Virus record (IMG/VR): IMGVR_UViG_3300021255_005860
Span: 1-64,000 of that record
DNA: 64,000 nucleotides
Strand: one strand, 5' to 3'
DNA from: a virus
Lineage: Duplodnaviria > Caudoviricetes
Positions 1 to 32,441 of the stretch are shown piece after piece. Every line of letters starts with the position of its first letter. The first letter of the stretch is position 1. The position numbers and the translations under genes were made by a program. The notes beneath the pieces are model-generated. The model ran no database searches. It saw only the letters and a program-made list of their open reading frames with translations, and was not told the origin of the DNA.

Positions 1-783
1 CAAGATCAGAATATCCTTACTCTCTACCCAGAACTCTTTACCTCATCTAAACTTCATTTTAATCTGCAAGAGTTATCTATACTGCTCTCTACTACTACTG
101 AAAAATTACATCAATGTGCTCAGACTGATGCTGAAGCTGAATCACTGTATTTGACTATCAAACCCTACATACCTTTATATAACATCCAAGAACCTAAAAT
201 AGAATATCGAGATTGTAAAGATCTTCAAGATAGTGTATCTACCTCTGAGACAGAAACTATGCACACTACTGTACATATCCCTAAACACTATATAACCTTA
301 AAATTAACTACCTCAGAAGTATTGTGTATCAAGACAGTTATGACCGATACTATCACTACCACTACTGATCCTAGAATCAAAGCTGATATCGAGAGTATAC
401 TTACTAAGATAAGTCACGAGATCACTACTTCTACTGAGGTTGAAAGACTTGAGCATCAAGAGAGACGTCCCTTTACCCAAGCTCTATTTGACCTAGTTAA
501 AATAGGGGATCCTAAGATAGGATGTTACTGCAGTGTTAACGGTTGTTATTTTATTCATCAAGAACGACCACATAGTGCACTCCTTATCAACTATCAGATC
601 AATGATACTAACTATGATCACTTAAGTGTAACTGCTATGCGCAAACATGTATGTGAAAGGTTTACCGATATCACTACTACTCACGAGATCTTAGATTTTA
701 AGACTGATTTTAAACTAGATAAGGATACCTTAACTAAAATCGCCGAGCACATCGTACAGATGTTAGCTCCAAGTGAACCATGA
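1..783 (+). CDS. hypothetical protein (5'-partial)
   Basis: Frame 1 is open from base 1 (QDQNILTLYPELF...) into the tracked 151..783 ORF, so the start lies upstream of the window. Confidence 0.7.
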   Translation, partial: QDQNILTLYPELFTSSKLHFNLQELSILLSTTTEKLHQCAQTDAEAESLYLTIKPYIPLYNIQEPKIEYRDCKDLQDSVSTSETETMHTTVHIPKHYITLKLTTSEVLCIKTVMTDTITTTTDPRIKADIESILTKISHEITTSTEVERLEHQERRPFTQALFDLVKIGDPKIGCYCSVNGCYFIHQERPHSALLINYQINDTNYDHLSVTAMRKHVCERFTDITTTHEILDFKTDFKLDKDTLTKIAEHIVQMLAPSEP

Positions 784-825
784 AACAATGAATAAATCAA
801 TGAAGAATTGAATAATTTGAAGATA

Positions 826-833
826 TATATTAC
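826..833 (+). promoter_or_regulatory. phiKZ-type early promoter (TATATTAC)
   Basis: Exact TATATTAC, intergenic, upstream of the GGAGG RBS and ORF 898; the motif recurs before several + strand genes. Confidence 0.7.
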
Positions 834-897
834 TATATTGACAAATATGATCTAAGGAAGGTCATATACTTACTTAACCGACTATGGAGGTCGAAAT

Positions 898-1725
898 ATG
901 AAACTATCTAGAATGAATAAATTATTAAGAGAAATCGTAACCACAGGGGCATCTACCTTTGAGGTGGATGCTTCTGATAGTGATGAAATTTTAGAGCGGT
1001 TGAAGAACTGGAAAATAATGGCTGCGGTTGTCAGAAGTGTTAGAAGTGATGAGGATGCTCCAGGAAAAGCAACTCTGAAATTGCTGGGGTCCGATTTGAG
1101 TCAAGCTTTAGATTGGCATCTGAGAATCACTAGCGACGTCATAACCTCTTATGCTGCCATGTTTGCCGATAGATTAATTCCTATTGCTCAGGTAGTAGTA
1201 ACTAAGGAGGCAAATGTCCTGCGTAAGGACAAATTGTTAGCTCGTAGGGATAGCTCTACAGGTCAATATAAGATCTTAGGAATCGCTGAGATAACCTCCT
1301 ACGAATGGAAGGTTATTGGAACGTATCTGGCTCGTCCTTGGGCCAGAGGAGTAAATAGTGATGACTATATCGAGCATAGTCACACTAATGCTCTAAATGT
1401 AATGGCATATGGGTTCACGTTGGCGGAACCTATACTTGGGCGTCTCCAAGATTCTTTAGGAAAGAGTGATAAGATCTGGATGATGATGTTCCATTGCCAT
1501 CTAGAGAAAGAGAATCGAGATATACCAGTATTAGTACCGATCAGAATGATGGCAAATGAGGTAGGTGATAGACAGCCTAATTCATTTGACGATTATCTGG
1601 TTGATTATCTCGACGATAAACTTGAGTGGCAACCTTTAGTCAGGAAGGTAGCTGCTCCTAAGATGGGTACAGCTGTTCAGGAGGTTATTTCAACCCTGAA
1701 GATGTTGACACCTATAGATAAATAA
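898..1725 (+). CDS. hypothetical early protein
   Basis: 275 aa ORF with GGAGG RBS, downstream of an early promoter. Confidence 0.8.
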   Translation: MKLSRMNKLLREIVTTGASTFEVDASDSDEILERLKNWKIMAAVVRSVRSDEDAPGKATLKLLGSDLSQALDWHLRITSDVITSYAAMFADRLIPIAQVVVTKEANVLRKDKLLARRDSSTGQYKILGIAEITSYEWKVIGTYLARPWARGVNSDDYIEHSHTNALNVMAYGFTLAEPILGRLQDSLGKSDKIWMMMFHCHLEKENRDIPVLVPIRMMANEVGDRQPNSFDDYLVDYLDDKLEWQPLVRKVAAPKMGTAVQEVISTLKMLTPIDK

Positions 1726-1793
1726 TACATAGATTCTCGTTGCCGGGGGTAACCTCAAGACCTTGTAACGAGATCTATGCCAGGAGAACATAC

Positions 1794-2384
1794 ATGTATC
1801 AAGATATCCTAAAAATAAAAATGAGGGATATTCTGTTGTCTGATAGAATATTTGAATATAAAAGAGCTGTTCTTCCCAATAACTGGGAAGGGCAGTTTCA
1901 ATCTGGGTCAACTATGCTCAATGTTTTTCGTGAGCATATAGGTCCGGATGATCTCTGGCTGTATTTTAATGAGCGTACAACTGGAGAGATTGGTCATAAA
2001 GAATGGAATTGCTTAAAGCAGATATCAGAAGAGGAGAAAGCACGCAATCCCTTAATAACTGTTGGTGCATACCTGCCGTATAAGTCTGTAGGGCTTGATT
2101 TTCCGTACTACGATTTTGAAGATAGTACGATTCTAAGGTTAATGCACTTACAGGTAGCTCATTACGATAAGACGACTAATGTTGTCTACAGTGTCGAATT
2201 GACACTCAACGATTTATTGTCGGGCAATTATGACTATCTTCGAATTCCTACCGAGGAGGAGATATTAAAAGCTTGGGATAAACTCCAAGACATCGAAGAG
2301 AATATTGCCAAGTTACAATTTGAGGGTAAATTCTACGAAGCTAAAGCACTTGATGCTACTAAGTGGCTCGAAGCTGCTATCTGA
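1794..2384 (+). CDS. hypothetical protein, paralog of 2403..2951
   Basis: AGGAG then ATG at 1794; shares N-terminal DI(L/I)K(I/L)KM and C-terminal LMHL...LL..xYD..xIP.xEE with the next gene. Confidence 0.75.
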   Translation: MYQDILKIKMRDILLSDRIFEYKRAVLPNNWEGQFQSGSTMLNVFREHIGPDDLWLYFNERTTGEIGHKEWNCLKQISEEEKARNPLITVGAYLPYKSVGLDFPYYDFEDSTILRLMHLQVAHYDKTTNVVYSVELTLNDLLSGNYDYLRIPTEEEILKAWDKLQDIEENIAKLQFEGKFYEAKALDATKWLEAAI

Positions 2385-2402
2385 ACTATAAAGGAGAAAA
2401 AT

Positions 2403-2951
2403 ATGATTGAGGACATAATTAAATTAAAGATGGATAAAATCCTCGGCACTAATCGGCCGCACGAAGAGTCATCAACAGAAGAGGCATCAGCAGTAGAAAG
2501 ATACTACGCAATATGCACGCATATTACGCAGGAAGTTGAGAAGTATCTATATACCCATGACCTACAACTGCGAGTTGCCAATGAGCAGCGAGAATTCATA
2601 ATTACTAACTGGGAGGAATACTTTCGGACCCTATCAACCTCAGAGATTGAACGTAATCCTGAGATCCGTATGGATATTTGCATACCAATCGCGGAGATGA
2701 TAAATCTCCTCGCCAGAGATAACCTCATGAGCACTGTTCTGTGGTTATATGACAACGCACAATCAAGTAATCTACAGGATCCGCTCTTAACTAAAGTCAT
2801 GAGTCTCATGCACTTAGTTATCCCACATCCATATTTAGTCGAATATGAGATTACTTGTAAGCTTAAACAGCTTTTGAACAATCAATACGATTGTTTCAAG
2901 ATACCTTCCTACGAGGAGGTGTGCGCCAAATTGAATTCAAAGGAAGCATGA
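2403..2951 (+). CDS. hypothetical protein, paralog of 1794..2384
   Basis: AAGGAG RBS; 182 aa; shares motifs with the upstream gene. Confidence 0.8.
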   Translation: MIEDIIKLKMDKILGTNRPHEESSTEEASAVERYYAICTHITQEVEKYLYTHDLQLRVANEQREFIITNWEEYFRTLSTSEIERNPEIRMDICIPIAEMINLLARDNLMSTVLWLYDNAQSSNLQDPLLTKVMSLMHLVIPHPYLVEYEITCKLKQLLNNQYDCFKIPSYEEVCAKLNSKEA

Positions 2952-2978
2952 TTTAAGATTCTATAGATAACTCAATTT

Positions 2979-3017
2979 AACTATAGCTCTTCTCAACAGG
3001 GCTATAGTTTATTTTTT
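2979..3017 (+). terminator. intrinsic terminator
   Basis: AACTATAGC...GCTATAGTT stem followed by a T-tract. Confidence 0.65.
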
Positions 3018-3126
3018 CCTTATAGTGGTGTATATAAGTTATCTACTCTGGCTAACTATATACTTGAGTTGCATTCTCGCTACCTGCAACCTACAAGTAT
3101 TTTATCATAAAGGACCTAAGATATCT

Positions 3127-3903
3127 ATGAAGATTTATTCTATTGAATTTAATCCTACGCTTACTATCAGTGCCGGCTACCATCTTGCTAACGATGAGTT
3201 AGGTAAAAGAGATGTTTGGATCAATTTAGGCTATAAAGTACCTAAAAAGAACTCACCTGTAGGAACTCCTCTAAAACCTCGCAAATGTAAATTAACTCGT
3301 GATAAATCTTTAATAGATCAAGATCTGGTGCTATACGCCCAGTGCTCTGCTATCGATTCTCCAGTAACTCCTAACGTTAGATATTTAGCTTCGATTCAAG
3401 AGCTGGTAGAAGATGATGAAAATGATGCAGTGATAGTTATTATTAAATCTGATGATGGACATGAACATGTAAGAGTTGAGAATAACTACCATCTACGTAA
3501 CGCTTCACAGTTGATGGAAGGGTTACATTACGCACCTGAGAGTAATGTAGTCCCAGAACCTATACCAGGTAAAAGAGCGCATACTACTTCCCCTTGTATC
3601 TTGGTGATGCAGCCTTATGAAACTTATACTCTGCATTATACCGATACTGAGAAACATGTTCAGCATACTGTTACTTTGTGTAAGAGTGATGGTGGAATAG
3701 AAGTTATCGAAGATAAATTTAAAGAGACCCAGTTCAAATCTCATAAATTTAAAACTACTCCAAGGTTCACTGACGAGAACCATATGAAAGATAAGCGACC
3801 TAACAGACGTCATAAAGATTACCCGTCTACTCTAGGTGATATCTTCAATTTAAAACCACATCGTCAGCACAAACGTGATAAACGCCAGCAATGGATATCT
3901 TAG
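3127..3903 (+). CDS. hypothetical protein with basic C-terminus
   Basis: Long ORF; likely start MKIYSIEF at 3127 after AAGGA. Confidence 0.7.
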   Translation: MKIYSIEFNPTLTISAGYHLANDELGKRDVWINLGYKVPKKNSPVGTPLKPRKCKLTRDKSLIDQDLVLYAQCSAIDSPVTPNVRYLASIQELVEDDENDAVIVIIKSDDGHEHVRVENNYHLRNASQLMEGLHYAPESNVVPEPIPGKRAHTTSPCILVMQPYETYTLHYTDTEKHVQHTVTLCKSDGGIEVIEDKFKETQFKSHKFKTTPRFTDENHMKDKRPNRRHKDYPSTLGDIFNLKPHRQHKRDKRQQWIS

Positions 3904-3966
3904 TATAACACCTATAGCTAGAGGTTACCCACCCCTAGCTATACATCCTATTTTAAGAGAGTTTAT

Positions 3967-4149
3967 ATGCCTTATATCCCGAATAGATATGAACCATCTA
4001 AAGATCATCTAGATCGTCAAGACAAAAAGACCTACCATAAAGAAAGATCGATACTAGTATCGCTACCTATGGGACCACTTGAGATAGCAGAAGGACTAGT
4101 CAAAGATAACCCTAGTTTGATAATTATACCTAGAAATAAAGAAGAGTAA
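3967..4149 (+). CDS. small hypothetical protein
   Basis: 60 aa ORF; its stop codon abuts the first cassette. Confidence 0.5.
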   Translation: MPYIPNRYEPSKDHLDRQDKKTYHKERSILVSLPMGPLEIAEGLVKDNPSLIIIPRNKEE

Positions 4150-4150
4150 G

Positions 4151-7100
4151 TGCAGAGAACCATATTGTCCGTGCACAAATGTATTTGGCATTCCATTTGA
4201 TTGATGAAAGTAGAATATGCCATTACCCGGGCCTTCTCCTCCACCGGAACGATCGCATCCTCCGCATAACAAGTAGATTCCAGTAGGCTCATGTGGCCAA
4301 TGATAATCTTGTTATCACTTTCTTGTTCATGGTACATGTAGAATATTCCTATTCAATTAGCACTGCGATATCAATCTCAGCTAGCACGCTCTTCCCATGC
4401 AGCTCCACCATAAAGGTTATGATACTCCGAAAATGATGCCAGTGTTAGAGAACCTATGCATTCCCACGCTATCGTTACGGCATGATAGTAGCATGAGTAT
4501 ATTCCTCCAGACGTCTTAGAACGGAATATGTCTCCAGTATTTAACTGGTTATCGTCCACAGTACGGATCGCATGATAATCCTGAGTCAGTTCACGAGAAC
4601 CCATATTCACATCTGCTGAGGCGTCATTTACAGTCGAGCCTTGGCGAAAAATGTCATGAGCATAGTCTCCGCTGCCCGAGTTCCAAGCACCACCTATAGC
4701 CCAAAACATTTTTCCTCCGGAGCCGTAATGATGATCCAAAATAATATCAGTACCGAGAACCTATCAATTTTTGCTCAACCTAGCAACGTTATTATCTGCT
4801 ATCCAGGTATAGACATCAAAACTATTAGACATGAATGCTCCGCCTTCAGTTCCAGTATCCCAACCTTTCCCAACAGTATAAGCTTTAACTCCTAATTCAG
4901 CATTGGCAGAATGATGACCTGTCAGGCAGAGAACCTGTATCAATTCTTACTTAGGCGAGAACCTATGAAATCCCAGAAGATTGTATTAGCGTGTTTATAA
5001 GCGTTGAATATACCGCCATTTCCGGAAGGCTTCCAAAACTCAGATGCGGCTCCATTGATACTGCCACCGCCCACCTGCATTTCAGTATCGTTCGCATCTC
5101 TAGTCCAATGATAAGCCATCACAGAGAACCTTCTAAAGGATGAGCCTCAGTTATCCTAACTGGAGTTTGATTAAACATGCCACCACCTCTTGAGGTATTC
5201 CCTGTGGCCCAGTCGTCATACCACAGCCCTCCCAGCATGCGGTGAACTTTATCAGACGCCAGAGCTCCTCCTAAACTATTATTATCCACGCAATGATAAT
5301 ATCAGTGAGAGAACTAATAGTCGGTAAGCTATCAGTGGAGTATATAGTTCTGGCATAAAACACACCCGTGTCAGATGGACCGTTGATATCGTTGCCTCCA
5401 GTGCTAGTTGAAATCCATCTTCTATGACCTATTTCAACCCTGCCAGAACTGTAGACGGTCGTAGAATCAGTTGCTGACTCGGTGATATGATAATCTGGCA
5501 TATACAAAGCAGTTTGAGAACCCCATTTGTGATATGTCGTGAAAAACCATTGCTCCTGTGCAAATATTCCGCTTTGTTCACTATACTCGTCTAAAGCACC
5601 AACATGAACTTCATTTAACGAGGTATGAGTTCCATCACCTGACCAATGATAAACGACAGTCCAGAGAACCTATTTGTACATGATTCATACCAGGCCCTAC
5701 GCCTGTCTGATGAAGAGCTTCAAAGATTCCGGCAGTGTGCCATTGCTCCGCGTAGAATCCCGAGATGAGGATATCTCCGACATTGGGATCACTCTGCAAG
5801 GCATGATAATCGTGGTCATTGTAGAGAACCTGTATGTGCACGAGTTCGCTCCGTTTCGATGGTATTGTTATCGTCAATCCAATTCGTAATTGCGCAAAAC
5901 AAACCCATCGATGCCTCGGTAATAGCACTTGACCATAGACATCCGGCAAAATACATCGATCCACCAGAAGCAGAATTCGTATGATAATTTTTCAGTGCAG
6001 AAGAACCTATATCGACCCCGTCTTTGTATGATCCATTAGAAGAAGCATTCGTAAATCCACCGTTACGCGTTCCATTCTGCCAACTTACTGATGCGGATAC
6101 CGCTGAACCGTACCAATTGAATCTGGAATCATACGCAAAATGATATTCCCAGTTTAGAGAACCTAACGCTATCCACGGGTCTTCGATATCGTATTTGAAA
6201 AATGCACCATTCTTAGATCCTTGACTCCAATATCCTCCAACGCCTTGCTCTCCATTAGAATTAGTATCGAACTTGGAATGGTAGTGCGAGAGAACCCCAG
6301 ATCTCTCCATATCTGTGATCAATGTTATCGCTAAACAGTCCTATTGTTGTTTCAGCTCCAGGACCTCCAACATTGTATCCATGAAACGGATGGTTCACAT
6401 CGATTACATACCAATGATAATTAAAAATGTTATCAGTGTGAGAACCTGTTCCGTCAGTTATCGACCAAACTGGATCAATATTTACATCAAAAATTCCGGT
6501 ATGAGTTCCACCACCTAGAGTACCAGTAAGCAGCATTGTCGTATTTTTGCCTGCCTCATACCAACTTTCTTGTGCATACCTCTCATAAGACCAATGATAA
6601 GATCGATAAGTCAATGCGAGAACCTACATGATTCCAATAATCGGCATAAGGAATATCAGGATTACTTATGAACTCACCACCTGTAGGGTGATCGTACCAA
6701 CTTCCTGCAGTAAGTAAGCAAAATGGTTCGATCAATTGTGACGGCTCTCTTTCATCGGCGTAATGTACGATATGATAATCATCACAGAGAACCTCAATCC
6801 TTAGAGACTCGAGCTGTCCACGCATATAACGTGTCAATCGAAGATCCGTCACTGCGATTGTCCCAGGCAAATCCTCCTGAAAGATTATCGTTAGTAGCTT
6901 CTCCACCGACAGCTCTAGATACCTTTGACGCCTTCCCAAAATGATAATGTAACTGTTCAGTTCAGAGAACCTTAATTTTTGGATAGTCGTGCCACATGAG
7001 CGTCATTAGACGGTACAGAAGTATCGGCATCGTGGAAGATCCCGCTCCAACTAGTAGAAAGCGTAGGGTAATTCACCAAGTATTTTGATGACACACCAAC

Positions 7101-7162
7101 AAGAAATATATACCACGTATTCGGATTACTGGTCGGTGTCATGCCACGAGACTGATGATAAT
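4151..7162 (-). repeat. cassette array 1: 17 CLec-like variable-region cassettes plus one degenerate copy
   Basis: Plus-strand GAGAACC-type ends at about 4155, 4448, 4595, 4755, 4929/4957, 5124, 5309, 5516, 5664, 5824, 6000, 6157, 6290, 6440, 6618, 6787 and 6965, each paired with ATGATA. Minus-strand translations include DYHWPHEPTGIYLLCGGCDRSGGGEGPGNGIFYFHQSNGMPNTFVHGQYGSL and HYHSKFDTNSNGEQGVGGYWSQGSKNGAFFKYDIEDPWIALGSL. Confidence 0.9.
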
Positions 7163-7566: not shown

Positions 7567-7597
7567 CCCTGTCTCATATGACAGGGATTTTATTTTT
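7567..7597 (+). terminator. intrinsic terminator
   Basis: CCCTGTC...GACAGGG stem plus T-tract. Confidence 0.7.
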
Positions 7598-7601
7598 GTT
7601 G

Positions 7602-9550
7602 TCAGTGAGGAGAACCTGTTTCCGGACCTTTATACGCAGCGTATTTAACGCCAATAGAGTCCACTATGAAACATCCAGATCCTAGTTCTGCATAATACCC
7701 GCCAATCAAATACACCGGGCGATCTAGCTCGGTGAGTGATCCACCAGGTTCACCGCCCAGCGAATGATAATTGCACCAAACTTATTATCATTGGCCTGGT
7801 GGTGAAACCACCGTACTATTCGGAGGAGACTGGACACTGGCGAACTCTACAGAGTGGGGAGATCGTCTCCGGTACGGTGGTATATTCATTTATCACAAAT
7901 CTGTAGTCACTGATAACGTCTTCGCGGGTTCTCTACGGACTATCATTGGGGTGGCGATATGGGACCTAACGGTTTTATTTATAACACACCAGGCTGTTTG
8001 GTAGCAGGCGGTGAATACAGCATTGATACTGGGCACGGCATTTATGCTCAAGGTCACACGCAACTATTAACCCCAGATGACTATAGCGGTAAAGGTTCTC
8101 TACGCTGCTCTAGTTATTATCATCTCAGTCAATACGGAACTCAATACATCTGGTATACGATCGGCAATGAAATCGTTGGATTTTCGTCACAGGGATATTC
8201 GACTTGGCCGGTAACTGCTGCTGGTTTACTAGGAAGTCAGAATTGGGCAGATCCGTCGGAACTCAATCCAGATATGGGGCCACATCCTGAGATAAGTTCT
8301 CTGCACTAGTATCTCAGATCTCTAGGTAATACATACAAGAAGTAAAAACTCCAGCGCATCGATGACCAAGACTCTCCAGTAAGAGGAACCCATCCGCTGG
8401 TTATACTCTGTCGGTTCCGCAAACGGATTATTGATAAAAAGTCCGTTTTCTGCTGCATCAATGTACTAGTAACCGCTCGTACACAAGATACGGACTCCAG
8501 ATAGTGCTCCTAGATGATAACTGAAAACATTGTCAGTACTGAGAACTGTACCAGTCTTCAACATGCTCGGCAGTCCAGTCGATGTCGTTACCGAATAAAC
8601 CACCGTATAGGTCGGAGCCTGGAAATCCGCCTACGGTCATAACGACGGTCTGTGTTGGGTTGTGATCATTGTAATGATAGCCTGTGCGAGAGAACCTGCA
8701 TAGGCATTATTAGTAATTGCGGATTTGTGGTAAAGGAATATACCTCCGTACTGAAGACGATCTCCCCACGCCGATGGACTTGATAGCGTCCAGTCTCCTC
8801 CGAACAGTACGGTGGTTTCACCGCTAGGCAAATGATAAACGGTAATCAGTGCAAGAGAACCTATTGATGCATGTTTACCGCCTTCATACGCAGGATAAGG
8901 ATCGTACCAATTGTTGTTATGAAAAATACCAGCCGCAGTACCTGCACCTGCGTAATCGAATCCTGTTAGATACACTTTCCACGATCCGACGTTTGGGTTT
9001 TCCGCATGATAGTCAATTTGAGAACCTGTATTAGATCCGCTTGACGCGGGACTAGTATGAGATCTAGACAACAGTCCACCATCATAATCTCGCCACTCAC
9101 CGCCAATAGTTACACTCGGACCAAAATACGACGCGGTCGAAACATATCCATGATAGTGCCAGTCAGAGAACCTTGACGCGCATCGGTGTGTGGAGCGACA
9201 CTTGGGATCTGTAAATTGGCCACATACTCCCACACTCTACCTAAATGAAATAACCCAGCTCTGTTAGAACCGCTAGATACACCAGTATCAGATGAGTAAC
9301 ATCCCAACGATTGTGGCACTGGGTATCCAGTTGCAAACGATTCGTACTCTCTTGTACCGCAAGGCTGATGATAATATAAACTAGTGCCAGAGAACCGTAG
9401 ACTCCATATCCTGAATCTAAAGGAGTAGGTTCGTTGAAGAACGCTCCACCTGTGCTAGAGGGTTCCCAAGTTCCTACACAACCGACTAGTGATTGAGTGG
9501 AGCGATTGGTACCATCGTGAAACAGATGATGATTCGCAGCACAGAGAACC
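7602..9550. repeat. cassette array 2: 11 cassettes (8 minus, 3 plus) plus stubs
   Basis: Minus ends at about 7610, 8384, 8541, 8690, 8855, 9020, 9166 and 9390 (stub at 9544); three plus-strand cassettes in 7783-8309 end at (G/A)GTTCTC 7927, 8094 and 8295. Confidence 0.9.
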
Positions 9551-9585
9551 TCTTCATATTCGATACTAGCATTTTTAATCTATAG

Positions 9586-9617
9586 GGCACTAGGACCTAT
9601 TAAAAGGTCCTAGTGTC
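9586..9617 (-). terminator. hairpin terminator
   Basis: CACTAGGACC...GGTCCTAGTG palindrome downstream of the 9656..10243 gene. Confidence 0.55.
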
Positions 9618-9655
9618 TTACTTATATCTTTTTAAGATATTAGATTAATGAAACA

Positions 9656-10243
9656 TTACCCTTTAAGCCAGGTAAATGCATAGCCTAAAGAAGCTACATT
9701 AGATGCACCTGTTAAAATATCTACAAATGCGCGTTCATTGGTAAGAGGGTTGATAATAGTCAAAGCTACCGTGGTGTCTTCACATGGACGTATACCAGAT
9801 ATAACAGTTAGAAGAATATAGTTAATACCCTTGGTAACCTGTGAACCTAAGTATACAACAGGTTCTAGATGTGCACCTACATAGCCTTCAAATCTCTTGT
9901 GGAAGGCTGCCTTAATATCCTCTGGAATTTCGGTTTGAACATCGATCTTGATGCCACCCATAGGTGCACCTCCTTCAAGAACACGTTCAATGTTAACCAA
10001 AGTAACATCTTCACCTTTCTCATTGAAGATCATTAAAACAATATTCTTCTGATCACGACCGGTGATAAGTAACTGCTCAGCCAATACGGCGTGGTTAGTA
10101 CCATTTACAAGTTGTGAGCCTAAATAAGCAATAGGTGTATATTCAGCTCCCATAAGGTTTAAGTTACCAAACGCAGAAGCAATTTTCTGAGGCATGCTAC
10201 CAACGGTAACATTGACAGTCCATTCACCTAAATTTGATGCCAT
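9656..10243 (-). CDS. protein with two tandem cystatin-like (QxVxG-type) repeats
   Basis: Internal duplication YTPIAYLGSQLVNGTNHAVL / LEPVVYLGSQVTKGINYILL; AAGGAG RBS. Confidence 0.7.
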   Translation of the reverse strand: MASNLGEWTVNVTVGSMPQKIASAFGNLNLMGAEYTPIAYLGSQLVNGTNHAVLAEQLLITGRDQKNIVLMIFNEKGEDVTLVNIERVLEGGAPMGGIKIDVQTEIPEDIKAAFHKRFEGYVGAHLEPVVYLGSQVTKGINYILLTVISGIRPCEDTTVALTIINPLTNERAFVDILTGASNVASLGYAFTWLKG

Positions 10244-10345: not shown

Positions 10346-11984
10346 ACTGTGCATAGAACCTATATGTACGTCATCATCTCTGTTTGCGACGTATGTTTCA
10401 TATGTAAACAATCCGGACTGAGGATGACCATCCCACCAACCTCCTGCTGACGCATACGGTCCTTCCCGACGATACTGCGACCACTAATGATAAATGATGG
10501 AAGTAACGCAGAGAACCTGCATAATCGCGGACAGACTCTTCACTACCACTTTCACGCAGCCAGTTGATGATGTTACAAAAGATTCCTCGATGCAATGGAG
10601 CAGCATCGATGCGAAACATACCTCCCACAAACTGTATTCGTCCGTTTGATGAACTAAAGGCATGATAGTTCAGTTTGAGAACCTATATGACTATAACCAA
10701 GTTCATCGTAATAATTGAGCACAATACAGAATATACCGGCACTAGTGGGATTCGGAGTAGGAGTTCCATCCCAGTTCATAGCCGATCTGCCGGTCGTAAC
10801 TACGAGAGTCCTAGTCATATCGTCAGTTATCGTAAAGCTATGATATCCCTCAGTTTGAGAACCTACAGTTCCTCCTTTCAGTCCAGTGTAGATCAGCACT
10901 GCATATCCTCCACTACCTGGACCACCGTTAGTCTCTTCTTGTAACGGACCGATGTTACAACCACCGGAGCAATAGACTCCACTGACATAATTGACCCAAT
11001 GATAATGTCATGCGGAGAACCTCTATCTTTGTGACCGTTATCGTCCGCCGGTGAAGCTCCATGGAAAATACCTGACCAATTAACTGTATCAGTTCTACCC
11101 CACGGCCAAGCATCATTGCCTACCATCCACAATCCGGTGTATTTCGTTCCAGATCCCCAATTATGATAAAGCCACTGCGAGAACCATACGCAGCATTTTC
11201 AAAGTTCATATTAGTCTCCCAGGTAAATATTCCAGCACTACTTCCATTTGCAGTTCTTCCACCAGTGATTAGTGTGTTGTTAGCTGGGACATTGTTGACG
11301 TAATGACAGTTCGAGAACCATTGACGGATGCAGAGAGGTTGGTACGATAGCAACAGTTAAAAAATAATCCTGGGGTAGTAGATCTACGATCAGGATCAGA
11401 CGTACTACTAGACCATTCTGCATTAGCACCTACCCAGCAATCATATTCATTAGTAGAAGTAGTAACAAACCAATGATAACAGTGCATAGAACCTCGAGGC
11501 TTCTGTGCTTCCCAACTCAAACTCACATCTTGAACCCTGTATATGCCAGCATACGTTGTTCCGTCGCCGTAGTGTCCTCCAAATTGCACGAAATGCTGCG
11601 AAATAACACCGGACCCATCGATTTCAGAATAATGATAATAAGTTCACTGTAAGAGAACCTCCTATGGCCGCAGTACTCAAAATCGGCACTCTGCCACGAT
11701 AGAAAATACCCGCATAACCTGATCCTGTATCAGTATTAAAAGCTTCTCCACCTGTGCTCACCATCAACGATACACCAGCAGCCCAGATTACTCCAGAATT
11801 CGCTGCTTCACCGCTACCGTGACGATAGTCATGTCAGAGAACTTATATTCTTCATTCCTGATTCTATCCATCCGTGATAGTTATAGATTCCTGCTGAATT
11901 AGGCATTTCTTTCGAAGTGATCCAACACCCCCCATTTATAGCAGCAGGTCCTCTAGCATCCTCGCTGTGCTGAAAATGATAATA
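10346..11984 (-). repeat. cassette array 3: 10 cassettes
   Basis: Ends at about 10354, 10511, 10677, 10857, 11015, 11179, 11313, 11487, 11653 and 11837; e.g. CHYVNNVPANNTLITGGRTANGSSAGIFTWETNMNFENAAYGSR. Confidence 0.9.
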
Positions 11985-12017
11985 TAACAGCATAAGCTTC
12001 ACCCTAAGGAGATCTAT

Positions 12018-13577: not shown

Positions 13578-14068
13578 TCAATACAGAGAACCTAAATTAT
13601 CATACTTGACAGTAGGAAGGTTATGACCTTCGTGGAAGATTCCTACGGAATTGATAACTGTCTCTCCACCTGATGAACCCATAACGACTATACCATCAGT
13701 ACCATATAAAAATGCTCCAGGGGCAAAGTCACCACCAAAATGATACTTCCGTTCAGAGAACCTCTTGTTGCAGTACCCACTTCTCGTTGCAGTCCGACAT
13801 CGGTGAAGATTCCTCTAGTAGTAGTAACATTGTCAGCTTCCGATGTTACTCCTGCCCATCCAAACATCAGTGTTGTATAATCTACTTTTTGTACGGAATG
13901 TTAATCCTCAGGCTAAGCAGCGCAGGAGAACCTAGATTGATGCCTTTAGATGTATCTTTGGTGCGGTTAACCTGGAAGATTCCTATACTGCCTGTAGATG
14001 AACTATACGAGTCCCATCCGGCTCCTATCATCACGGTGGTAACATCAGCATTTTGATCAGCATGATAA
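13578..14068 (-). repeat. cassette array 4: 3 cassettes
   Basis: Ends at 13586, 13756 and 13926; e.g. IYHADQNADVTTVMIGAGWDSYSSSTGSIGIFQVNRTKDTSKGINLGSP. Confidence 0.85.
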
Positions 14069-14119
14069 ATACAAAACGTTAAAAATCTCCTTCACGAGGG
14101 TCCCTTAACCCCTCGTGAA

Positions 14120-19146: not shown

Positions 19147-20043
19147 ATGATCGATTATAAACTATTTGACAGCATTCTAGAATCCTGCGCTCGGGATTCT
19201 GCTGAATTTAAAATAGCTCAAACTTACGAGAGAACAGTTACCAAAGATGACTTCGTGATCTTAACTCCCGAGTATGACGAGTTACCAGGTAAATTTGAAA
19301 AGTATCAGATCGAGTTATACTTAAAGGCACATAGAAATGCTATCGCCCTGAGTGTACCTTTATGTGCACCCTTCTTATCTAGATTACGTAAAACCTCTGA
19401 GGAAGATCCTCACTTTATCGTATCTGACCTGCGTATAGTCCAATATGAGGATGAACTCTACTACCTAGAGCAACTGGGCATCTACCGTTCACGAGATATC
19501 GCTGCATCTGGAGGTGATATCGGACTACCAGTTTTACAACTGATACGTATCTGCAAATATAAAGATGTAGAACGTAAGATTGTAAGACAACTTCAAAACT
19601 ATCTATCCTTCTTACGTAGGATAAGTAGTACACTCGATATGTCATTGTGTAATCACAATGCAGATATCGTCTTTCGTGATACTGGCAGACCTTATTTTAC
19701 TGCGGTACTAAGTTCACTTAACTACTATGTTAAAAATACTGGTGTTTGGTGTATTAATTTAAATTTAGGTACTGATGATATAACTATCTACGATGGAGGT
19801 ATCGACAAAGATAACCTTCATAAGTATTTTGAATATCTCACCGTCTTTGAATACGAAGATAGATTACGTGAGATGTTTAATAGATTAGAAGATCCTGAGA
19901 TGGGTGTATCTATGCTGCAAATAGGTTATAACACTGTGGAAGGATCAGTGTTAGGTAAGTTTAAAGCGATTGTATTAAATTCCATCGATAGTTCTTACCA
20001 CCATTTAAACTTTGGTAAATTCAGAGAAGAGAATGATCAATGA
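19147..20043 (+). CDS. hypothetical protein
   Basis: AAGGAG then ATG at 19147; stop overlaps the HNH start (ATGA). Confidence 0.75.
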   Translation: MIDYKLFDSILESCARDSAEFKIAQTYERTVTKDDFVILTPEYDELPGKFEKYQIELYLKAHRNAIALSVPLCAPFLSRLRKTSEEDPHFIVSDLRIVQYEDELYYLEQLGIYRSRDIAASGGDIGLPVLQLIRICKYKDVERKIVRQLQNYLSFLRRISSTLDMSLCNHNADIVFRDTGRPYFTAVLSSLNYYVKNTGVWCINLNLGTDDITIYDGGIDKDNLHKYFEYLTVFEYEDRLREMFNRLEDPEMGVSMLQIGYNTVEGSVLGKFKAIVLNSIDSSYHHLNFGKFREENDQ

Positions 20044-20555
20044 GCGATAACTTAGGCAGGATGAAACGTATACTAGGAGCTGATGAATACTATCTATCTG
20101 ATCTAGGCAAACTCTATAGAGTACTAGACGGTAAGTTAACTGAGATATATCCAAGTTACCAAAGTGAATATCCTTACTGGCTTATCTCTTATCAAGGTAA
20201 CTTTAGAGCCTACTCTTGTCACCGTCTTATGGCTGAATATTTTCTACCTAACCCTCAAGGATACAAGGTAGTAAATCACAAGGATGGTAACAAACACAAT
20301 TTTAAACTATCTAACCTTGAGTGGTGTTCGCAAGGATACAATGTTACTCATGGCTATAGAACTGGGTTAAATCGTCACACTACCCCTAAAGTGGTAGTTG
20401 ATGCTATCATAACTGAGTTATCTTCTTATAACTTAAATGCTATGAAGAAGTATCCTTATAAACAAATAGCAGCTAAGTATAACGTATCTTATCAAACTGT
20501 ATGGAATATAGCTCATAAAGTAAGACATGCTCAATCTCTAACCTTTACTTGGTAA
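20040..20555 (+). CDS. HNH homing endonuclease with C-terminal HTH
   Basis: HRLMAEYFLPNP...VNHKDGNKHNFKLSNLEW. Confidence 0.9.
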   Translation: MSDNLGRMKRILGADEYYLSDLGKLYRVLDGKLTEIYPSYQSEYPYWLISYQGNFRAYSCHRLMAEYFLPNPQGYKVVNHKDGNKHNFKLSNLEWCSQGYNVTHGYRTGLNRHTTPKVVVDAIITELSSYNLNAMKKYPYKQIAAKYNVSYQTVWNIAHKVRHAQSLTFTW

Positions 20556-30348: not shown

Positions 30349-30483
30349 TTCAGAGAACCTACATATACTCTACTATTATCTATCAGATCGACTCCACCCT
30401 GCCTAAATGCACCAGCTCTCGCGAAGTTATCGATCTATCCACTGATCACTATGAAGCACATCTGTGCCCACCCATCATGATAA
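30349..30483 (-). repeat. solo variable-region cassette
   Basis: TATCAT...GGTTCTCTGAAC encoding FYHDGWAQMCFIVISG*IDNFARAGAFRQGGVDLIDNSRVYVGSL. Confidence 0.8.
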
Positions 30484-30536: not shown

Positions 30537-32441
30537 TTAGGAGAAAAATACGATATCTTTAACTGTAAGTTTATTAGATTCTAATCCTGCCAGTACGTTA
30601 AAGTTTAAAGCTATAATGATATTAGCACTAGCGTCTTTATAAACTTCAGCGTTGATATAAGCAGGTTCATCTTGATGAGTAAAGGTAGCATGACCTTTGA
30701 GATGAGCTGACTGGGCAAATGGAATATCCACTGCAAACTCCAATCCCTCTTCTTCTTTGATATCAAGTCTCATCTTAGTGATGCGAGAAATATCCACATT
30801 TTCCGAGGCTGCTATGATGCTATCAGTTAGCACCTTATTCTGCCAACCTTCAATCTCACGGTTAAGATCCAAATCACCTACCCAAGCTAAATGACCCTTA
30901 TGGAAAGGTATTAACATGGATTCAGATTTAGAGCTATCAAGTAAAGATGACCAAGTTGAAGACCCATCAGGTAATACAAAATCTGAGTTAGCTGGATAGG
31001 TGAGTTCATCAATCTCATCTATTAGTACCCACTCAGATTCTTGTCCTGAGATATCCTCAATTTGGAAGGTCTCTTTGTTCATGGTCTTAAGATCTAGGCC
31101 TAACTGCAGGTAACAGCCAGAAGCTTTTTCTTGACTATTCCAAACAACTCTAAGCTGAGGTCTTATGATGTCAGCTATAGCAGAATAATCACTAAATGCT
31201 GTATAACCTTTAGGATAGTTATCTACTAATACTTGACAGTTGAAAACATCACCATCCGTATTTTCAAGATCTACTGCTACTGAGCAGGTGAACTGGAAGT
31301 GGGATAGTAAGGATTGTAATTTAAAAGTAAAGGTATCAGCAGTTGATACTGTGCTAGAACCACCTGCTTTATATAAGGAGGCTATTGTAAACCAGTTAAC
31401 TCCACTCTCTGATGCATAGACTTTCATCAAAATAGTCTTACCATCAGTGACATCACCGTAATTTACTCCGCCATGCAATCTACGCATTTCAGACTCCAGG
31501 GTAGTTATTCTATCAAATAAAGATGAGATTACTTTAGTGCTTCCTATAGAAGAAGTAGTCACTGTTTGAGCATCGTTTAAATAGCTTATAATTGAGCTTA
31601 GATTTTCAAGCAGCAATCTATAATTCTCAACTGTAGGTTCACCACCAAAAGCTTGGTATGTGATCTTAACTGTACCTTCAACCGGAGTTACAATCGCGAT
31701 AAAATGCCAAACAGCCTCCAGTGCTGAGGTAGCTTTAGTGGCAGCTTCATCCATGCCAACTAGATAGTAATCAGTACCCTTAACAAGTTCTACCTCGTTA
31801 TAGGTAACCTTGATACTATCAGCATAGAAACTACCTGCCTGTGGATGCACTATCACTCTGCCATTAGCAGTTGAAACTACATGCTCTTCATCTTCTACTA
31901 AGTTAGCAGGATTCTCACCTGTGGTATCTACTTCGTAGATCTTAGCATCTCCCGTGGTAAGTGCGGTAGTAGATGACACTCTATTTAACAGAGCATCATG
32001 CTGAGCTATCTTAGCTACCATCTCAGAGAGCATCTCAGGTGTGAAGTTTAATGCAGTATTCTCAACATAGCTCTGCTGGATCTGAGATGGGTATAACCTC
32101 TGATAAGAGATAGCGATAGAGAAATCACTATCATCATCTTCAAAGGTATGGATCATCTCGATACCTGAACAGAAATTAGCTCTGAAAGTACTATCGCGTA
32201 ACCTTGCAGCTGAATAATCATTATCGCAGGTAGTTACAAAATCATCTGGAATAATGTAATCGGTATTTAAGGTCAGAAGCTGTCCTGAGATACCGCCTGA
32301 GGCATAGTAGACTTTGATACTATCAGCATAGACTGGAGTTTCAAAATCTATCCTCTGCCCATATTTGTATACTTTATAGATAAGATTTGATACTGTGCAA
32401 TTACTATCGCTACCAGTCAAATCCATGGTTAAATTAGCCAT
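30537..32441 (-). CDS. virion structural protein (baseplate/tail-associated)
   Basis: 634 aa; DLTG / DTTGENPANLVEDEEH motifs typical of phiKZ-like tail proteins. Confidence 0.65.
   Translation of the reverse strand: MANLTMDLTGSDSNCTVSNLIYKVYKYGQRIDFETPVYADSIKVYYASGGISGQLLTLNTDYIIPDDFVTTCDNDYSAARLRDSTFRANFCSGIEMIHTFEDDDSDFSIAISYQRLYPSQIQQSYVENTALNFTPEMLSEMVAKIAQHDALLNRVSSTTALTTGDAKIYEVDTTGENPANLVEDEEHVVSTANGRVIVHPQAGSFYADSIKVTYNEVELVKGTDYYLVGMDEAATKATSALEAVWHFIAIVTPVEGTVKITYQAFGGEPTVENYRLLLENLSSIISYLNDAQTVTTSSIGSTKVISSLFDRITTLESEMRRLHGGVNYGDVTDGKTILMKVYASESGVNWFTIASLYKAGGSSTVSTADTFTFKLQSLLSHFQFTCSVAVDLENTDGDVFNCQVLVDNYPKGYTAFSDYSAIADIIRPQLRVVWNSQEKASGCYLQLGLDLKTMNKETFQIEDISGQESEWVLIDEIDELTYPANSDFVLPDGSSTWSSLLDSSKSESMLIPFHKGHLAWVGDLDLNREIEGWQNKVLTDSIIAASENVDISRITKMRLDIKEEEGLEFAVDIPFAQSAHLKGHATFTHQDEPAYINAEVYKDASANIIIALNFNVLAGLESNKLTVKDIVFFS

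What the first reader, a model, noticed from the sequence alone, without database searches (positions are those of the whole stretch)
4755..7162. The cassette 3' boundary GGTTCTC-N2-4-ACTG is a nucleic-acid signal, and it reveals the target's C-terminus
Most cassettes stop at GGT TCT C (GS-R/L), followed by out-of-register ACTG(A), e.g. GGTTCTCGTGAACTGA, GGTTCTCGGTACTGA, GGTTCTCACACTGA, GGTTCTCTGAACTGA, GGTTCTCAAACTG. Three cassettes whose peptide lacks GS at this position carry their own full ending and stop codon, then GGTTCTC in non-coding position: VARLSKN*-TA-GGTTCTC (about 4755), TARVSKD*-GGTTCTC (6787) and VARLSKN*-GGTTCTC (6965). A fourth has GSRLSKN*-TACA-GGTTCTC (4929/4957). Inference: GGTTCTC is required in cis as a crossover, priming or processing site regardless of coding, and the expressed gene ends ...GSR(L/V)SK(N/D)*. 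The near-invariant TATCAT and GGTTCT codon choice at both ends supports this.
Basis: partly seen in the sequence, partly recalled or inferred. Interest (0 to 1): 0.85.

Follow-up and report, generated by a model that had tools for sequence, protein, structure and literature searches.

The report
Phage receptor-tip cassette-swapping signals
The short DNA words GGTTCTC and TTATCAT mark the edges of more than 50 silent gene pieces that a giant phage copies, one at a time, into the tip of a lectin-like tail protein, a way of changing a receptor-binding protein that I could not find described for any virus of bacteria.

Summary
Observation confirmed; interpretation supported, including its prediction. 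GGTTCTC occurs 42 times in the window (6.25 expected), 34 of them on the minus strand of the array at 3.7-14.1 kb. Each unit runs (T)TATCAT, about 140 nt of open frame, GGTTCTC, then ACTG 2-4 nt later. The four stop-bearing cassettes with non-coding GGTTCTC are as described.

The target lies 1.65 kb beyond window position 1. An ENA contig 100% identical to window 1-6988 continues into a 447-aa gene on the cassette strand ending ...DYH-[48 aa]-GSRLSKN*, with TTATCAT and GGTTCTC at the cassette edges. In a second strain the gene is the same up to DYH and again from GSRLSKN, but carries another cassette, which matches window silent cassette 11837-11983. Identity starts at ATTATCAT and ends at GTTCTC.

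The first strain's expressed cassette has a 153/153-identical silent copy 6 kb downstream, so transfer is copy-paste and not adenine-mutagenic. The target models as FN3 plus a C-type-lectin fold (TaqVP Z 25, Mtd Z 11.8). An Avd-like gene follows it; no reverse transcriptase was found in about 185 kb. Related jumbo phages share the signals. The enzyme is unknown.

The scan noted this array before, on this genome only.

The parts
3776..7160 (-). Silent-cassette sub-array F, about 20 units.
   Evidence: Units run TATCAT...GGTTCTC at 133-180 nt spacing.
7611..7769 (-). Single cassette ending GGTTCTC-CTC-ACTGACAA, followed by a terminator hairpin at 7567-7586.
7785..8309 (+). Inverted block of three cassettes. 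Their ends are GGTTCTC at 7927, GGTTCTC at 8094 and AGTTCTC-TGC-ACTA at about 8297.
7607..8529 (.). A 923-bp segment present here but absent from a 97.5%-identical strain (L236). The junction lies inside the GTTCTC-N3-ACTGACAA signal.
8640..9579 (-). Silent-cassette sub-array C, about 6 units, three of them fortuitously in one frame (ORF 8637-9233).
10512..12002 (-). Silent-cassette sub-array B, about 9 units.
11837..11983 (-). Silent cassette (YHFQHSEDARGPAAINGG...) that is the donor type of the cassette expressed in strain L242. It ends AGTTCTC here.
   Evidence: 147 nt with 3 mismatches. Identity starts at ATTATCAT and ends at GTTCTC.
13587..14091 (-). Silent-cassette sub-array A, 3 units.
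6972..7160 (-). Cassette with its own ending VARLSKN*, followed at once by non-coding GGTTCTC (6965-6971).
6794..6946 (-). Cassette with its own ending TARVSKD*, followed at once by non-coding GGTTCTC (6787-6793).
4940..5113 (-). Cassette ending GSRLSKN*. The coding GGTTCTC is at 4957-4963, and a second, non-coding GGTTCTC at 4929-4935 follows TACA. Its tail resembles the 3' end of the expression site.
4764..4916 (-). Cassette starting CATCAT, with its own ending VARLSKN*-TA, then non-coding GGTTCTC (4755-4761). It is absent from strain L242.
30353..30483 (-). Degenerate solo unit (TTATCAT...GGTTCTC-TGAACTTG) with in-frame stops, lying 3' of tail/virion gene 30537-32441.
   Evidence: It scores only weakly against the cassette HMM.

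Best explanation
GGTTCTC is the 3' junction signal, and in silent copies it is followed 2-5 nt later by ACTG(AC). (A)TTATCAT is the 5' junction signal. Together they bound a library of at least 53 silent cassettes spread over about 25 kb, on both sides and both strands of one expression site.

The expression site is the last 53 codons of a 447-aa tail protein (FN3 domain plus a DGR-type C-type-lectin domain). The gene lies 1.65 kb left of the window and ends ...FSDYH-[cassette]-GSRLSKN*.

One cassette at a time is copied faithfully and non-reciprocally into that site, and the donor is kept. This swaps the ligand-binding face that a DGR would hypermutate. The 3' junction is read as DNA, not as codons. 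A cassette that carries its own xARLSKN* ending therefore still works, because the GGTTCTC behind its stop codon is where the copy ends.

Shown:
- the signals and the target
- two independent switches with junctions in the signals
- donor retention and absence of adenine mutagenesis
- conservation of the signals in related phages

Inferred:
- that the process is programmed and DNA-level, by nick- or break-induced synthesis or copy-choice that uses the 7-16-nt signals
- that the adjacent Avd-like protein takes part
- that switching changes host range
For: Target and prediction. L240/L243 is 100% identical to window 1-6988 and continues into an ORF ending ...DYHYYHENED...HVGSRLSKN*.

Expression-site DNA. 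It reads GGA-TTATCAT-[cassette]-GGTTCTC-GTTTAAGTAAGAACTAG.

Switch 1. The L242 and L243 targets are near-identical for 394 residues, unrelated across the cassette, then identical again from GSRLSKN. The L242 cassette matches window 11983-11837 over 147 nt with 3 mismatches, and identity is bounded by ATTATCAT and GTTCTC.

Switch 2. The L243 expressed cassette is 153/153 identical, including 43 adenines, to a silent copy at L243 15666-15818. L242 keeps the orthologous silent copy at 95% identity while expressing another cassette. The silent copy is therefore the older one, so transfer ran from silent copy to expression site.

Array turnover also happens at the signals.

Coding is maintained. 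Of 54 units, 50 are stop-free and in frame, against 13% for random windows of the same DNA.

Nucleotide-level constraint is shown and by the non-coding GGTTCTC copies.

Fold. The AF2 model has pLDDT 91.9. Foldseek gives TaqVP at E 1e-9. VIA-align gives TaqVP Z 25.1 (261 residues, rmsd 2.9, model 114-447 against chain 17-380), Mtd Z 11.8 and FGE Z 9.8. The TaqVP variable region is residues 341-381, at the very C-terminus (PMC6328139).

Avd-like neighbour. PF22296 at 5.4e-13 and PHROG 'Avd protein of DGR' at 2.3e-10. The order target, Avd-like gene, small protein, DUF4376 tail-fibre-like gene is conserved in two relatives.

Family. 78 homologues share a constant ...VVSAENQGTFSDYH, a hypervariable 45-55 aa segment, and GSRLSKN. 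L247, L251 and L252 carry the same DNA signals; L247 and L251 also have their own arrays, and L251 has a silent near-copy of its expressed cassette.
Against: No reads could be examined. Switching within one population, its rate and exact junction positions therefore rest on comparing assembled contigs from different samples.

No enzyme has been identified. No reverse transcriptase, serine recombinase or tyrosine recombinase is found in the 153-kb record, which CheckV rates 53% complete.

The motifs are also conserved codons of the target (DYH, GS-R), so part of their conservation could reflect concerted evolution with the expression site rather than protein recognition.

The expression site lacks ACTG near its own GGTTCTC. 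The role of ACTG is therefore unknown.

One relative (L246) has the target and the Avd-like gene but almost no GGTTCTC units nearby.
Confidence: 0.82

Rival explanations
1. RNA-templated transfer. The arrays are transcribed, and a reverse transcriptase encoded in the unsequenced part of the genome works with the Avd-like protein to copy one cassette RNA into the target. This would be a multi-template, non-mutagenic relative of DGR retrohoming, with GGTTCTC(-ACTG) acting like IMH/IMH*.
For: The target has the fold of a DGR variable protein and the cassette occupies the variable-region position. An Avd-like gene sits where DGRs place avd. Cassette length (123-168 nt) is like that of a template repeat. 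Donors work in either orientation. The record is only 53% complete.
Against: No RVT_1 match in the 153-kb record. None among the precomputed Pfam hits over about 32 kb beyond it. None within 10 kb either side of the target in L246 or L247 (L251 has only upstream flank). None in a complete 286-kb distant relative. DGR reverse transcriptases normally lie next to avd and the template. In the fresh copy, 0 of 43 adenines changed.
Confidence: 0.13
2. There is no dedicated signal. The motifs are just the conserved codons at the two ends of a variable segment. Cassettes move by ordinary homologous or microhomology-mediated recombination, or by replication slippage, and selection keeps the useful products.
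For: TTATCAT encodes the conserved DYH and GGTTCTC encodes GS-R of the target. In L251 many silent cassettes keep longer flanks of target homology: SAENQGTFSDYH upstream and an SRLSKN-like tail downstream. The L236 indel could be slippage on a 14-nt repeat.
Against: In this phage the homology is only 7-8 nt, yet every junction examined falls there. GGTTCTC is kept after stop codons, where it codes for nothing. ACTG(AC) is conserved at a variable offset and out of frame. Codon choice is invariant at the edges but free inside. The same words recur in phages with about 70% nucleotide identity in the constant region.
Confidence: 0.1
3. Conservative site-specific recombination, as in a shufflon or the Gin/Cin systems. 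An invertase or excisionase recombines the motifs and moves cassettes into the gene.
For: Cassettes occur in both orientations and there is an inverted three-cassette block. The full 16-nt signal occurs in antisense orientation just upstream of the expression-site cassette.
Against: Donors stay in place after transfer. Recombining the sites as they are arranged would fuse the constant region to an antisense cassette. No resolvase/invertase or tyrosine recombinase is found in 153 kb.
Confidence: 0.04
4. RNA-level choice. An array transcript is cut at the motifs and one cassette is joined to the target mRNA.
For: The motifs are short and strand-specific, and most cassettes share the target's strand.
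Against: The different cassettes are already present in the DNA of the expression site in DNA assemblies. A terminator-like hairpin at 9583-9620 and genes on the other strand interrupt the arrays.
Confidence: 0.02

Closest known systems
Diversity-generating retroelements (Bordetella phage BPP-1 mtd-avd-TR-brt; Thermus TaqVP)
   Same: The target is a C-type-lectin (FGE-type) fold variable protein, and its last 45 or so residues are the replaced segment. An Avd-family gene lies directly downstream. A unit of about 150 nt is replaced with a defined 3' boundary. The system sits in a phage tail module.
   Different: There are dozens of unrelated donor cassettes instead of one template repeat. The copy is faithful (0 of 43 adenines changed). 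No reverse transcriptase was found. The boundaries are 7-8-nt words rather than a GC-rich IMH with a nearby hairpin.
Borrelia vlsE / vls silent cassettes
   Same: One expression site next to an array of promoterless cassettes, some in the opposite orientation. Transfer is non-reciprocal and the donor is kept. Short repeats bound the variable segment (17 bp in vls, from my own knowledge).
   Different: Whole-unit replacement is seen here, not mosaic segments. The replicon is a phage. The signals are 7-8 nt. The target is a lectin-fold tip, not a surface lipoprotein. vls needs RuvAB (my knowledge); nothing comparable has been identified here.
Neisseria pilE/pilS antigenic variation
   Same: Silent partial gene copies act as donors for a single expressed gene. 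Cassettes stay open-frame though unexpressed.
   Different: pilS copies share long conserved blocks with pilE and use RecA plus a G4 element (my knowledge). Here the homology is minimal and no G4-type element is evident.
Shufflons and Gin/Cin/Min tail-fibre inversion systems (R64 Rci, Mu G segment)
   Same: They provide alternative C-terminal ends for a receptor-binding protein, using short specific DNA sites.
   Different: Those systems are conservative inversions by a linked recombinase, with 2-7 alternatives. Here transfer is duplicative, no recombinase was found, and there are more than 50 alternatives.
Orphan CT arrays of CdiA/Rhs toxins
   Same: Displaced or spare C-terminal modules lie in tandem near the main gene and are delimited by a short conserved peptide motif.
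   Different: Those modules are long, carry immunity genes and recombine through longer homology. Here units are about 150 nt, with nucleotide-level signals that persist where they do not code.

Membership tests
Diversity-generating retroelement | A DGR-type reverse transcriptase encoded in or near the locus | tested here: inconclusive
   No PF00078 match in the 153-kb record. None among precomputed Pfam hits over about 32 kb beyond the target, or within 10 kb either side of the target in L246 and L247. However, the genome is only about 53% complete by CheckV.
Diversity-generating retroelement | One template repeat nearly identical to the variable region and differing at adenines | tested here: not met
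   The expressed cassette equals its silent copy at 153/153 positions, including 43 adenines. There are more than 50 mutually divergent donors (mean column identity 21%). The second event shows 3 mismatches (2 A-to-G, 1 G-to-A) between different strains.
Diversity-generating retroelement | Accessory variability determinant (Avd) | tested here: met
   PF22296 bAvd at E 5.4e-13, 49.8 bits against a cut-off of 40. PHROG 3206 'Avd protein of DGR' at 2.3e-10. The protein has an extra N-terminal extension of 95-150 aa.
Diversity-generating retroelement | C-type-lectin-fold variable protein with the variable region at the C-terminus | tested here: met
   TaqVP Z 25.1, with the model aligned to its last residue; Mtd Z 11.8. 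The cassette is residues 394-441 of 447. The TaqVP variable region is 341-381 of 381.
Silent-cassette gene conversion (vls / pilS type) | A single expression site plus multiple partial copies without starts | tested here: met
   One full gene (L243 8303-9646) and at least 53 cassettes that have no start codon of their own and are separated by out-of-frame linkers.
Silent-cassette gene conversion (vls / pilS type) | Non-reciprocal transfer with the donor retained | tested here: met
   The expressed and silent copies coexist in one contig. The orthologous silent copy is kept in a strain that expresses another cassette. This rests on contigs, not reads.
Silent-cassette gene conversion (vls / pilS type) | Dependence on host or phage recombination functions (RecA, RuvAB and the like) | not testable with these tools
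   Needs genetics.
Shufflon / invertase switching | A linked site-specific recombinase and reciprocal inversion between sites | tested here: not met
   No PF00239 or PF00589 match in 153 kb. Donors are duplicated, not exchanged.

The most novel reading that the evidence does not exclude
A lineage of phiKZ-like jumbo phages has turned a DGR-type variable protein and its Avd partner into an RT-less, combinatorial-library system. Dedicated and still unknown machinery reads RSS-like words: TTATCAT; GGTTCTC-N3-ACTGAC on donors; and the same 16-mer in antisense just upstream of the acceptor. It pastes one of more than 50 stored tips into the receptor-binding face. This would be a new recombination mechanism and a second, independent route to programmed host-range variation in phages.
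Probability: 0.4. Interest if true: 0.95.

Novelty: new variant of a known kind. Interest (0 to 1): 0.9.

Why it matters
Programmed variation of phage receptor-binding proteins is known from DGR hypermutation and from invertase switches with a few alternatives. This locus adds a third logic: a stored library of more than 50 pre-tested tips, copied into a DGR-type lectin scaffold at 7-8-nt signals.

It links two fields, DGRs and bacterial or parasite antigenic variation. It also gives a case in which an Avd protein is conserved with no reverse transcriptase in sight.

The cis-signals and the donor and acceptor sequences are now defined at base resolution, so reads, reconstitution and mutagenesis can test the model directly. 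A survey of 224 jumbo phages found no FGS-type lectin domains (PMC7824862), and four literature searches found no description of such a system. The scaffold plus library could also be useful for engineering phage host range or binders.

Tried and rejected
- Motif scans of IMG/VR. Single chance hits and collagen-like Gly-Ser-Gln repeats, which are full of GGTTCTC, swamped the output. None of 235 loci matched the cassette HMM.
- Cassette peptides. No Pfam hit, no PDB sequence hit, and only weak ESM Atlas leads to carbohydrate-binding modules at 0.83. No homologues of a three-cassette ORF, and none of the tail-bearing cassette among longer proteins.
- The search for related loci on the cassette alignment failed because no block was conserved enough. 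No close relative of the phage turned up in IMG/VR or INPHARED. Two distant target homologues were found in IMG/VR, without a reverse transcriptase.
- The two GGTTCTC copies in gene 50977-52941 are unrelated GWFS codons.
- A cassette HMM over all six frames of the 153-kb record found nothing outside 3.7-14.1 kb.
- Rfam found nothing in the 17-kb target locus. The 370-nt spacer between the target and the Avd-like gene folds only modestly better than shuffles (z -2.3).
- A TnpB gene lies 25 kb from the target. Its downstream region shares no 10-mer with the expression site, so I rejected it as the guide for cutting.
- An exact expression-site flank scan of JGI metagenomes found nothing. A degenerate scan gave two more expression sites.
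- I worked through site-specific inversion or excision at the 16-nt signal on paper. It always yields an antisense cassette, so I rejected it.
Full report
**Setting.** The window is the first 64 kb of a 153,160-bp IMG/VR viral record that CheckV rates 53% complete. It carries split virion RNA polymerase beta genes and a 3625-aa tail-lysozyme protein. Its relatives are distant phiKZ-like jumbo phages at under 30% protein identity.

**The observation.**
- GGTTCTC occurs 42 times against 6.25 expected. Of these, 34 lie on the minus strand between 3775 and 13932, and two lie in an inverted block at 7927 and 8094.
- On the minus strand, each unit is (A)TTATCAT, 117-162 nt, GGTTCTC, 2-5 nt, ACTG(A/G), 0-20 nt, then the next TTATCAT.
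- The TAT CAT frame runs stop-free to GGT TCT and encodes YH(W)..GG.W..GIF..GS, 42-69 aa, with only about 21% mean column identity.
- Linkers vary in length and mostly break the frame.
- Codon statistics favour a nucleotide signal. The base after GGT TCT is C in 24/24 while the residue varies. TAT CAT occurs in 24/26 cassette starts. Internal Gly, Ser, Tyr and His codons are mixed.
- ACTG follows GGTTCTC within 2-4 nt in 14 of 34 junctions, against a 4.9% background.

**Finding the target.** No cassette-like sequence and no R[LV]SK[ND]* ORF exists elsewhere in the 153 kb.
- Exact-protein look-ups of array ORFs recovered ENA and Logan contigs of the same phage. L240/L243 (ERZ12302814 NODE_6422) is 100% identical to window 1-6988 and runs on past position 1.
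- About 1.65 kb beyond the window, on the cassette strand, lies a 447-aa ORF ending ...VVSAENQGTFSDYH-YYHENED...WDHV-GSRLSKN*.
- Its DNA reads GGA-TTATCAT-[cassette]-GGTTCTC-GTTTAAGTAAGAACTAG.

**Switching events.** A second strain (L242, ERZ28612951 scaffold_877, 95-97% identical) has the same protein for 394 residues, an unrelated cassette, then GSRLSKN*.
- Its cassette matches window silent cassette 11983-11837 (147 nt, 3 mismatches). Identity begins at ATTATCAT and ends at GTTCTC, and the flanks are unrelated.
- The cassette expressed in L243 has a 153/153-identical copy 6 kb downstream in the same contig (L243 15666-15818). L242 keeps the orthologous silent copy at 95% identity.
- The silent copy therefore predates the strain split. 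Transfer ran from silent copy to expression site, the donor is kept, and none of 43 adenines changed.

**The library is larger than the window shows.**
- More cassettes with the same junctions lie downstream of the target, on both strands.
- The composite 24.9-kb locus holds 54 units, including the expression site. Of these, 52 are in frame and 50 are open, against 13% for random windows.
- Between strains the arrays differ by whole-unit replacement or insertion bounded by TTATCAT and GGTTCTC.
- A 97.5%-identical contig (L236) lacks window 7607-8529, and its junction lies inside GTTCTC-N3-ACTGACAA.

**What the target is.**
- The AlphaFold2 model built on 40 homologues has pLDDT 91.9.
- Foldseek's top PDB hits are the DGR variable proteins TaqVP (E 1e-9) and Mtd.
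- VIA-align gives TaqVP Z 25.1 (261 residues, rmsd 2.9, model 114-447 against chain 17-380), Mtd Z 11.8 and FGE Z 9.8. Residues 2-75 form an FN3 domain.
- The TaqVP variable region is residues 341-381, at the very C-terminus (PMC6328139). The cassette (394-441 of 447) therefore occupies the variable-region position.
- The next gene is Avd-like. A small beta-rich protein and a DUF4376 tail-fibre-like protein follow. This order is conserved in two relatives.

**No reverse transcriptase or recombinase found.**
- PF00078, PF00239 and PF00589 give no match in the 153-kb record.
- Precomputed Pfam hits show none over about 32 kb beyond the target, or near the target in the relatives.
- A complete 286-kb distant relative has no reverse transcriptase.
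- A TnpB gene 25 kb away shows no guide-like match to the expression site.

**Distribution.**
- 78 homologues, on contigs up to 252 kb, share the constant ...THDLMELFLP.TVVSAENQGTFSDYH, a hypervariable 45-55 aa segment, and GSRLSKN-like ends.
- L247 (65% identical target, 241-kb contig) has its own arrays with GGTTCTC-N-ACTG...TTATCAT on both strands.
- L251 (70% identical) has a silent near-copy of its expressed cassette. Many of its cassettes keep longer target flanks.
- L252 has an expression-site 3' end identical to ours at 24/24 nt, although its constant region is about 71% identical at the nucleotide level.
- L253 and P0013 show a collapsed expression site.
- L246 has the target and the Avd-like gene but few units.

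**An unexplained feature.** In all four phages the full 16-nt donor signal, GGTTCTC-(T/C)GC-ACTGAC, lies in antisense orientation 16 nt upstream of the expression-site TTATCAT.
- There it encodes VSAEN.
- Its codons are invariant while neighbouring codons differ at synonymous sites.
- The expression site's own GGTTCTC lacks a nearby ACTG. Donors and acceptor are thus marked differently, which recalls IMH* against IMH.
- L243 also has 12-nt and 8-nt inverted repeats bracketing the cassette. L247 has the outer one, with one compensating change. L246 and L251 do not show it.

**Mechanism.** The data require DNA-level, duplicative, unit-length, faithful transfer, with both junctions in 7-8-nt words and donors usable in either orientation.
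- The best fit is a nick- or break-induced copy (synthesis-dependent annealing or copy-choice) guided by the signals, possibly with the Avd-like protein. This is inferred, and no enzyme has been identified.
- Retrohoming by a distant reverse transcriptase is not excluded, at about 0.13.
- Plain microhomology recombination is possible, at about 0.1.
- Conservative site-specific recombination and RNA-level joining are contradicted by donor retention and by the DNA contigs.

**Novelty.** Four literature searches found no description of such a system. A survey of 224 jumbo phages reported no FGS-type lectin domains (PMC7824862). I file this as a new variant of silent-cassette gene conversion, built on DGR parts. 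If dedicated machinery reads the signals, it would be a new mechanism.

**Limits.** All events are inferred from assembled contigs of different samples. Reads could not be examined. The host and the virion location of the protein are unknown.

Noticed in passing
L243:9445-9461 (off window); equivalents in L246, L247 and L251: The full donor 3' signal, GGTTCTC-(T/C)GC-ACTGAC, sits in antisense orientation 16 nt upstream of the expression-site TTATCAT. It encodes VSAEN. Its codons are invariant in four phages while neighbouring synonymous sites vary.
   Followed up: partly
L243:9406-9413/9725-9732 and 9460-9471/9670-9681; L247:11107-11117/11369-11379: Inverted repeats bracket the expressed cassette. 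The outer pair shows one compensating change between two phages. It was not seen in L246 or L251.
   Followed up: partly
window 9583-9620: A 16-bp hairpin lies between ORF 9656-10243 (195 aa, an internally duplicated domain with no family hit) and the start of cassette sub-array C.
   Followed up: no
window 6944: ENA scaffold_567 (69 kb, 99.99% identical to the window) ends inside the TATCAT of a cassette. This suggests the assembly graph breaks at the array.
   Followed up: no
L243:12990-13580: A formate/nitrite-transporter-like gene (PF01226, 8.7e-20) is embedded between cassette arrays downstream of the target.
   Followed up: no
L250:11936-13183: A TnpB (OrfB_IS605 / Cas12f-like TNB, 415 aa) lies in the phage about 25 kb from the target. 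No sequence link to the expression site was found.
   Followed up: partly
L253:about 2470-2545; protein P0013: A collapsed expression site in a relative. TTATCAT is followed by only about 33 nt with a stop, then an ARLSKN* tail. This may be a cassette-less null allele or a failed switch.
   Followed up: no
window about 20040-20243 (L237 1-204): An HNH_3 endonuclease gene (precomputed Pfam hit) lies 6 kb from the upstream end of the array. Such genes are common in phages. It was not tested as a candidate nuclease.
   Followed up: no
L128, L161 and L194 (IMG/VR contigs): Collagen-like Gly-X-Y genes rich in GGT TCT CAA give dense same-strand GGTTCTC runs. They are a false-positive source for any motif-only search for this system.
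   Followed up: yes
window 7785-7932 (+) and 8691-8837 (-): An inverted pair of paralogous cassettes (YHWPGGETTVLFGGDW... and YHLPSGETTVLFGGDW...) lies about 0.8 kb apart. The plus-strand copy lies inside the 923-bp segment that strain L236 lacks; the minus-strand copy lies just outside it.
   Followed up: partly
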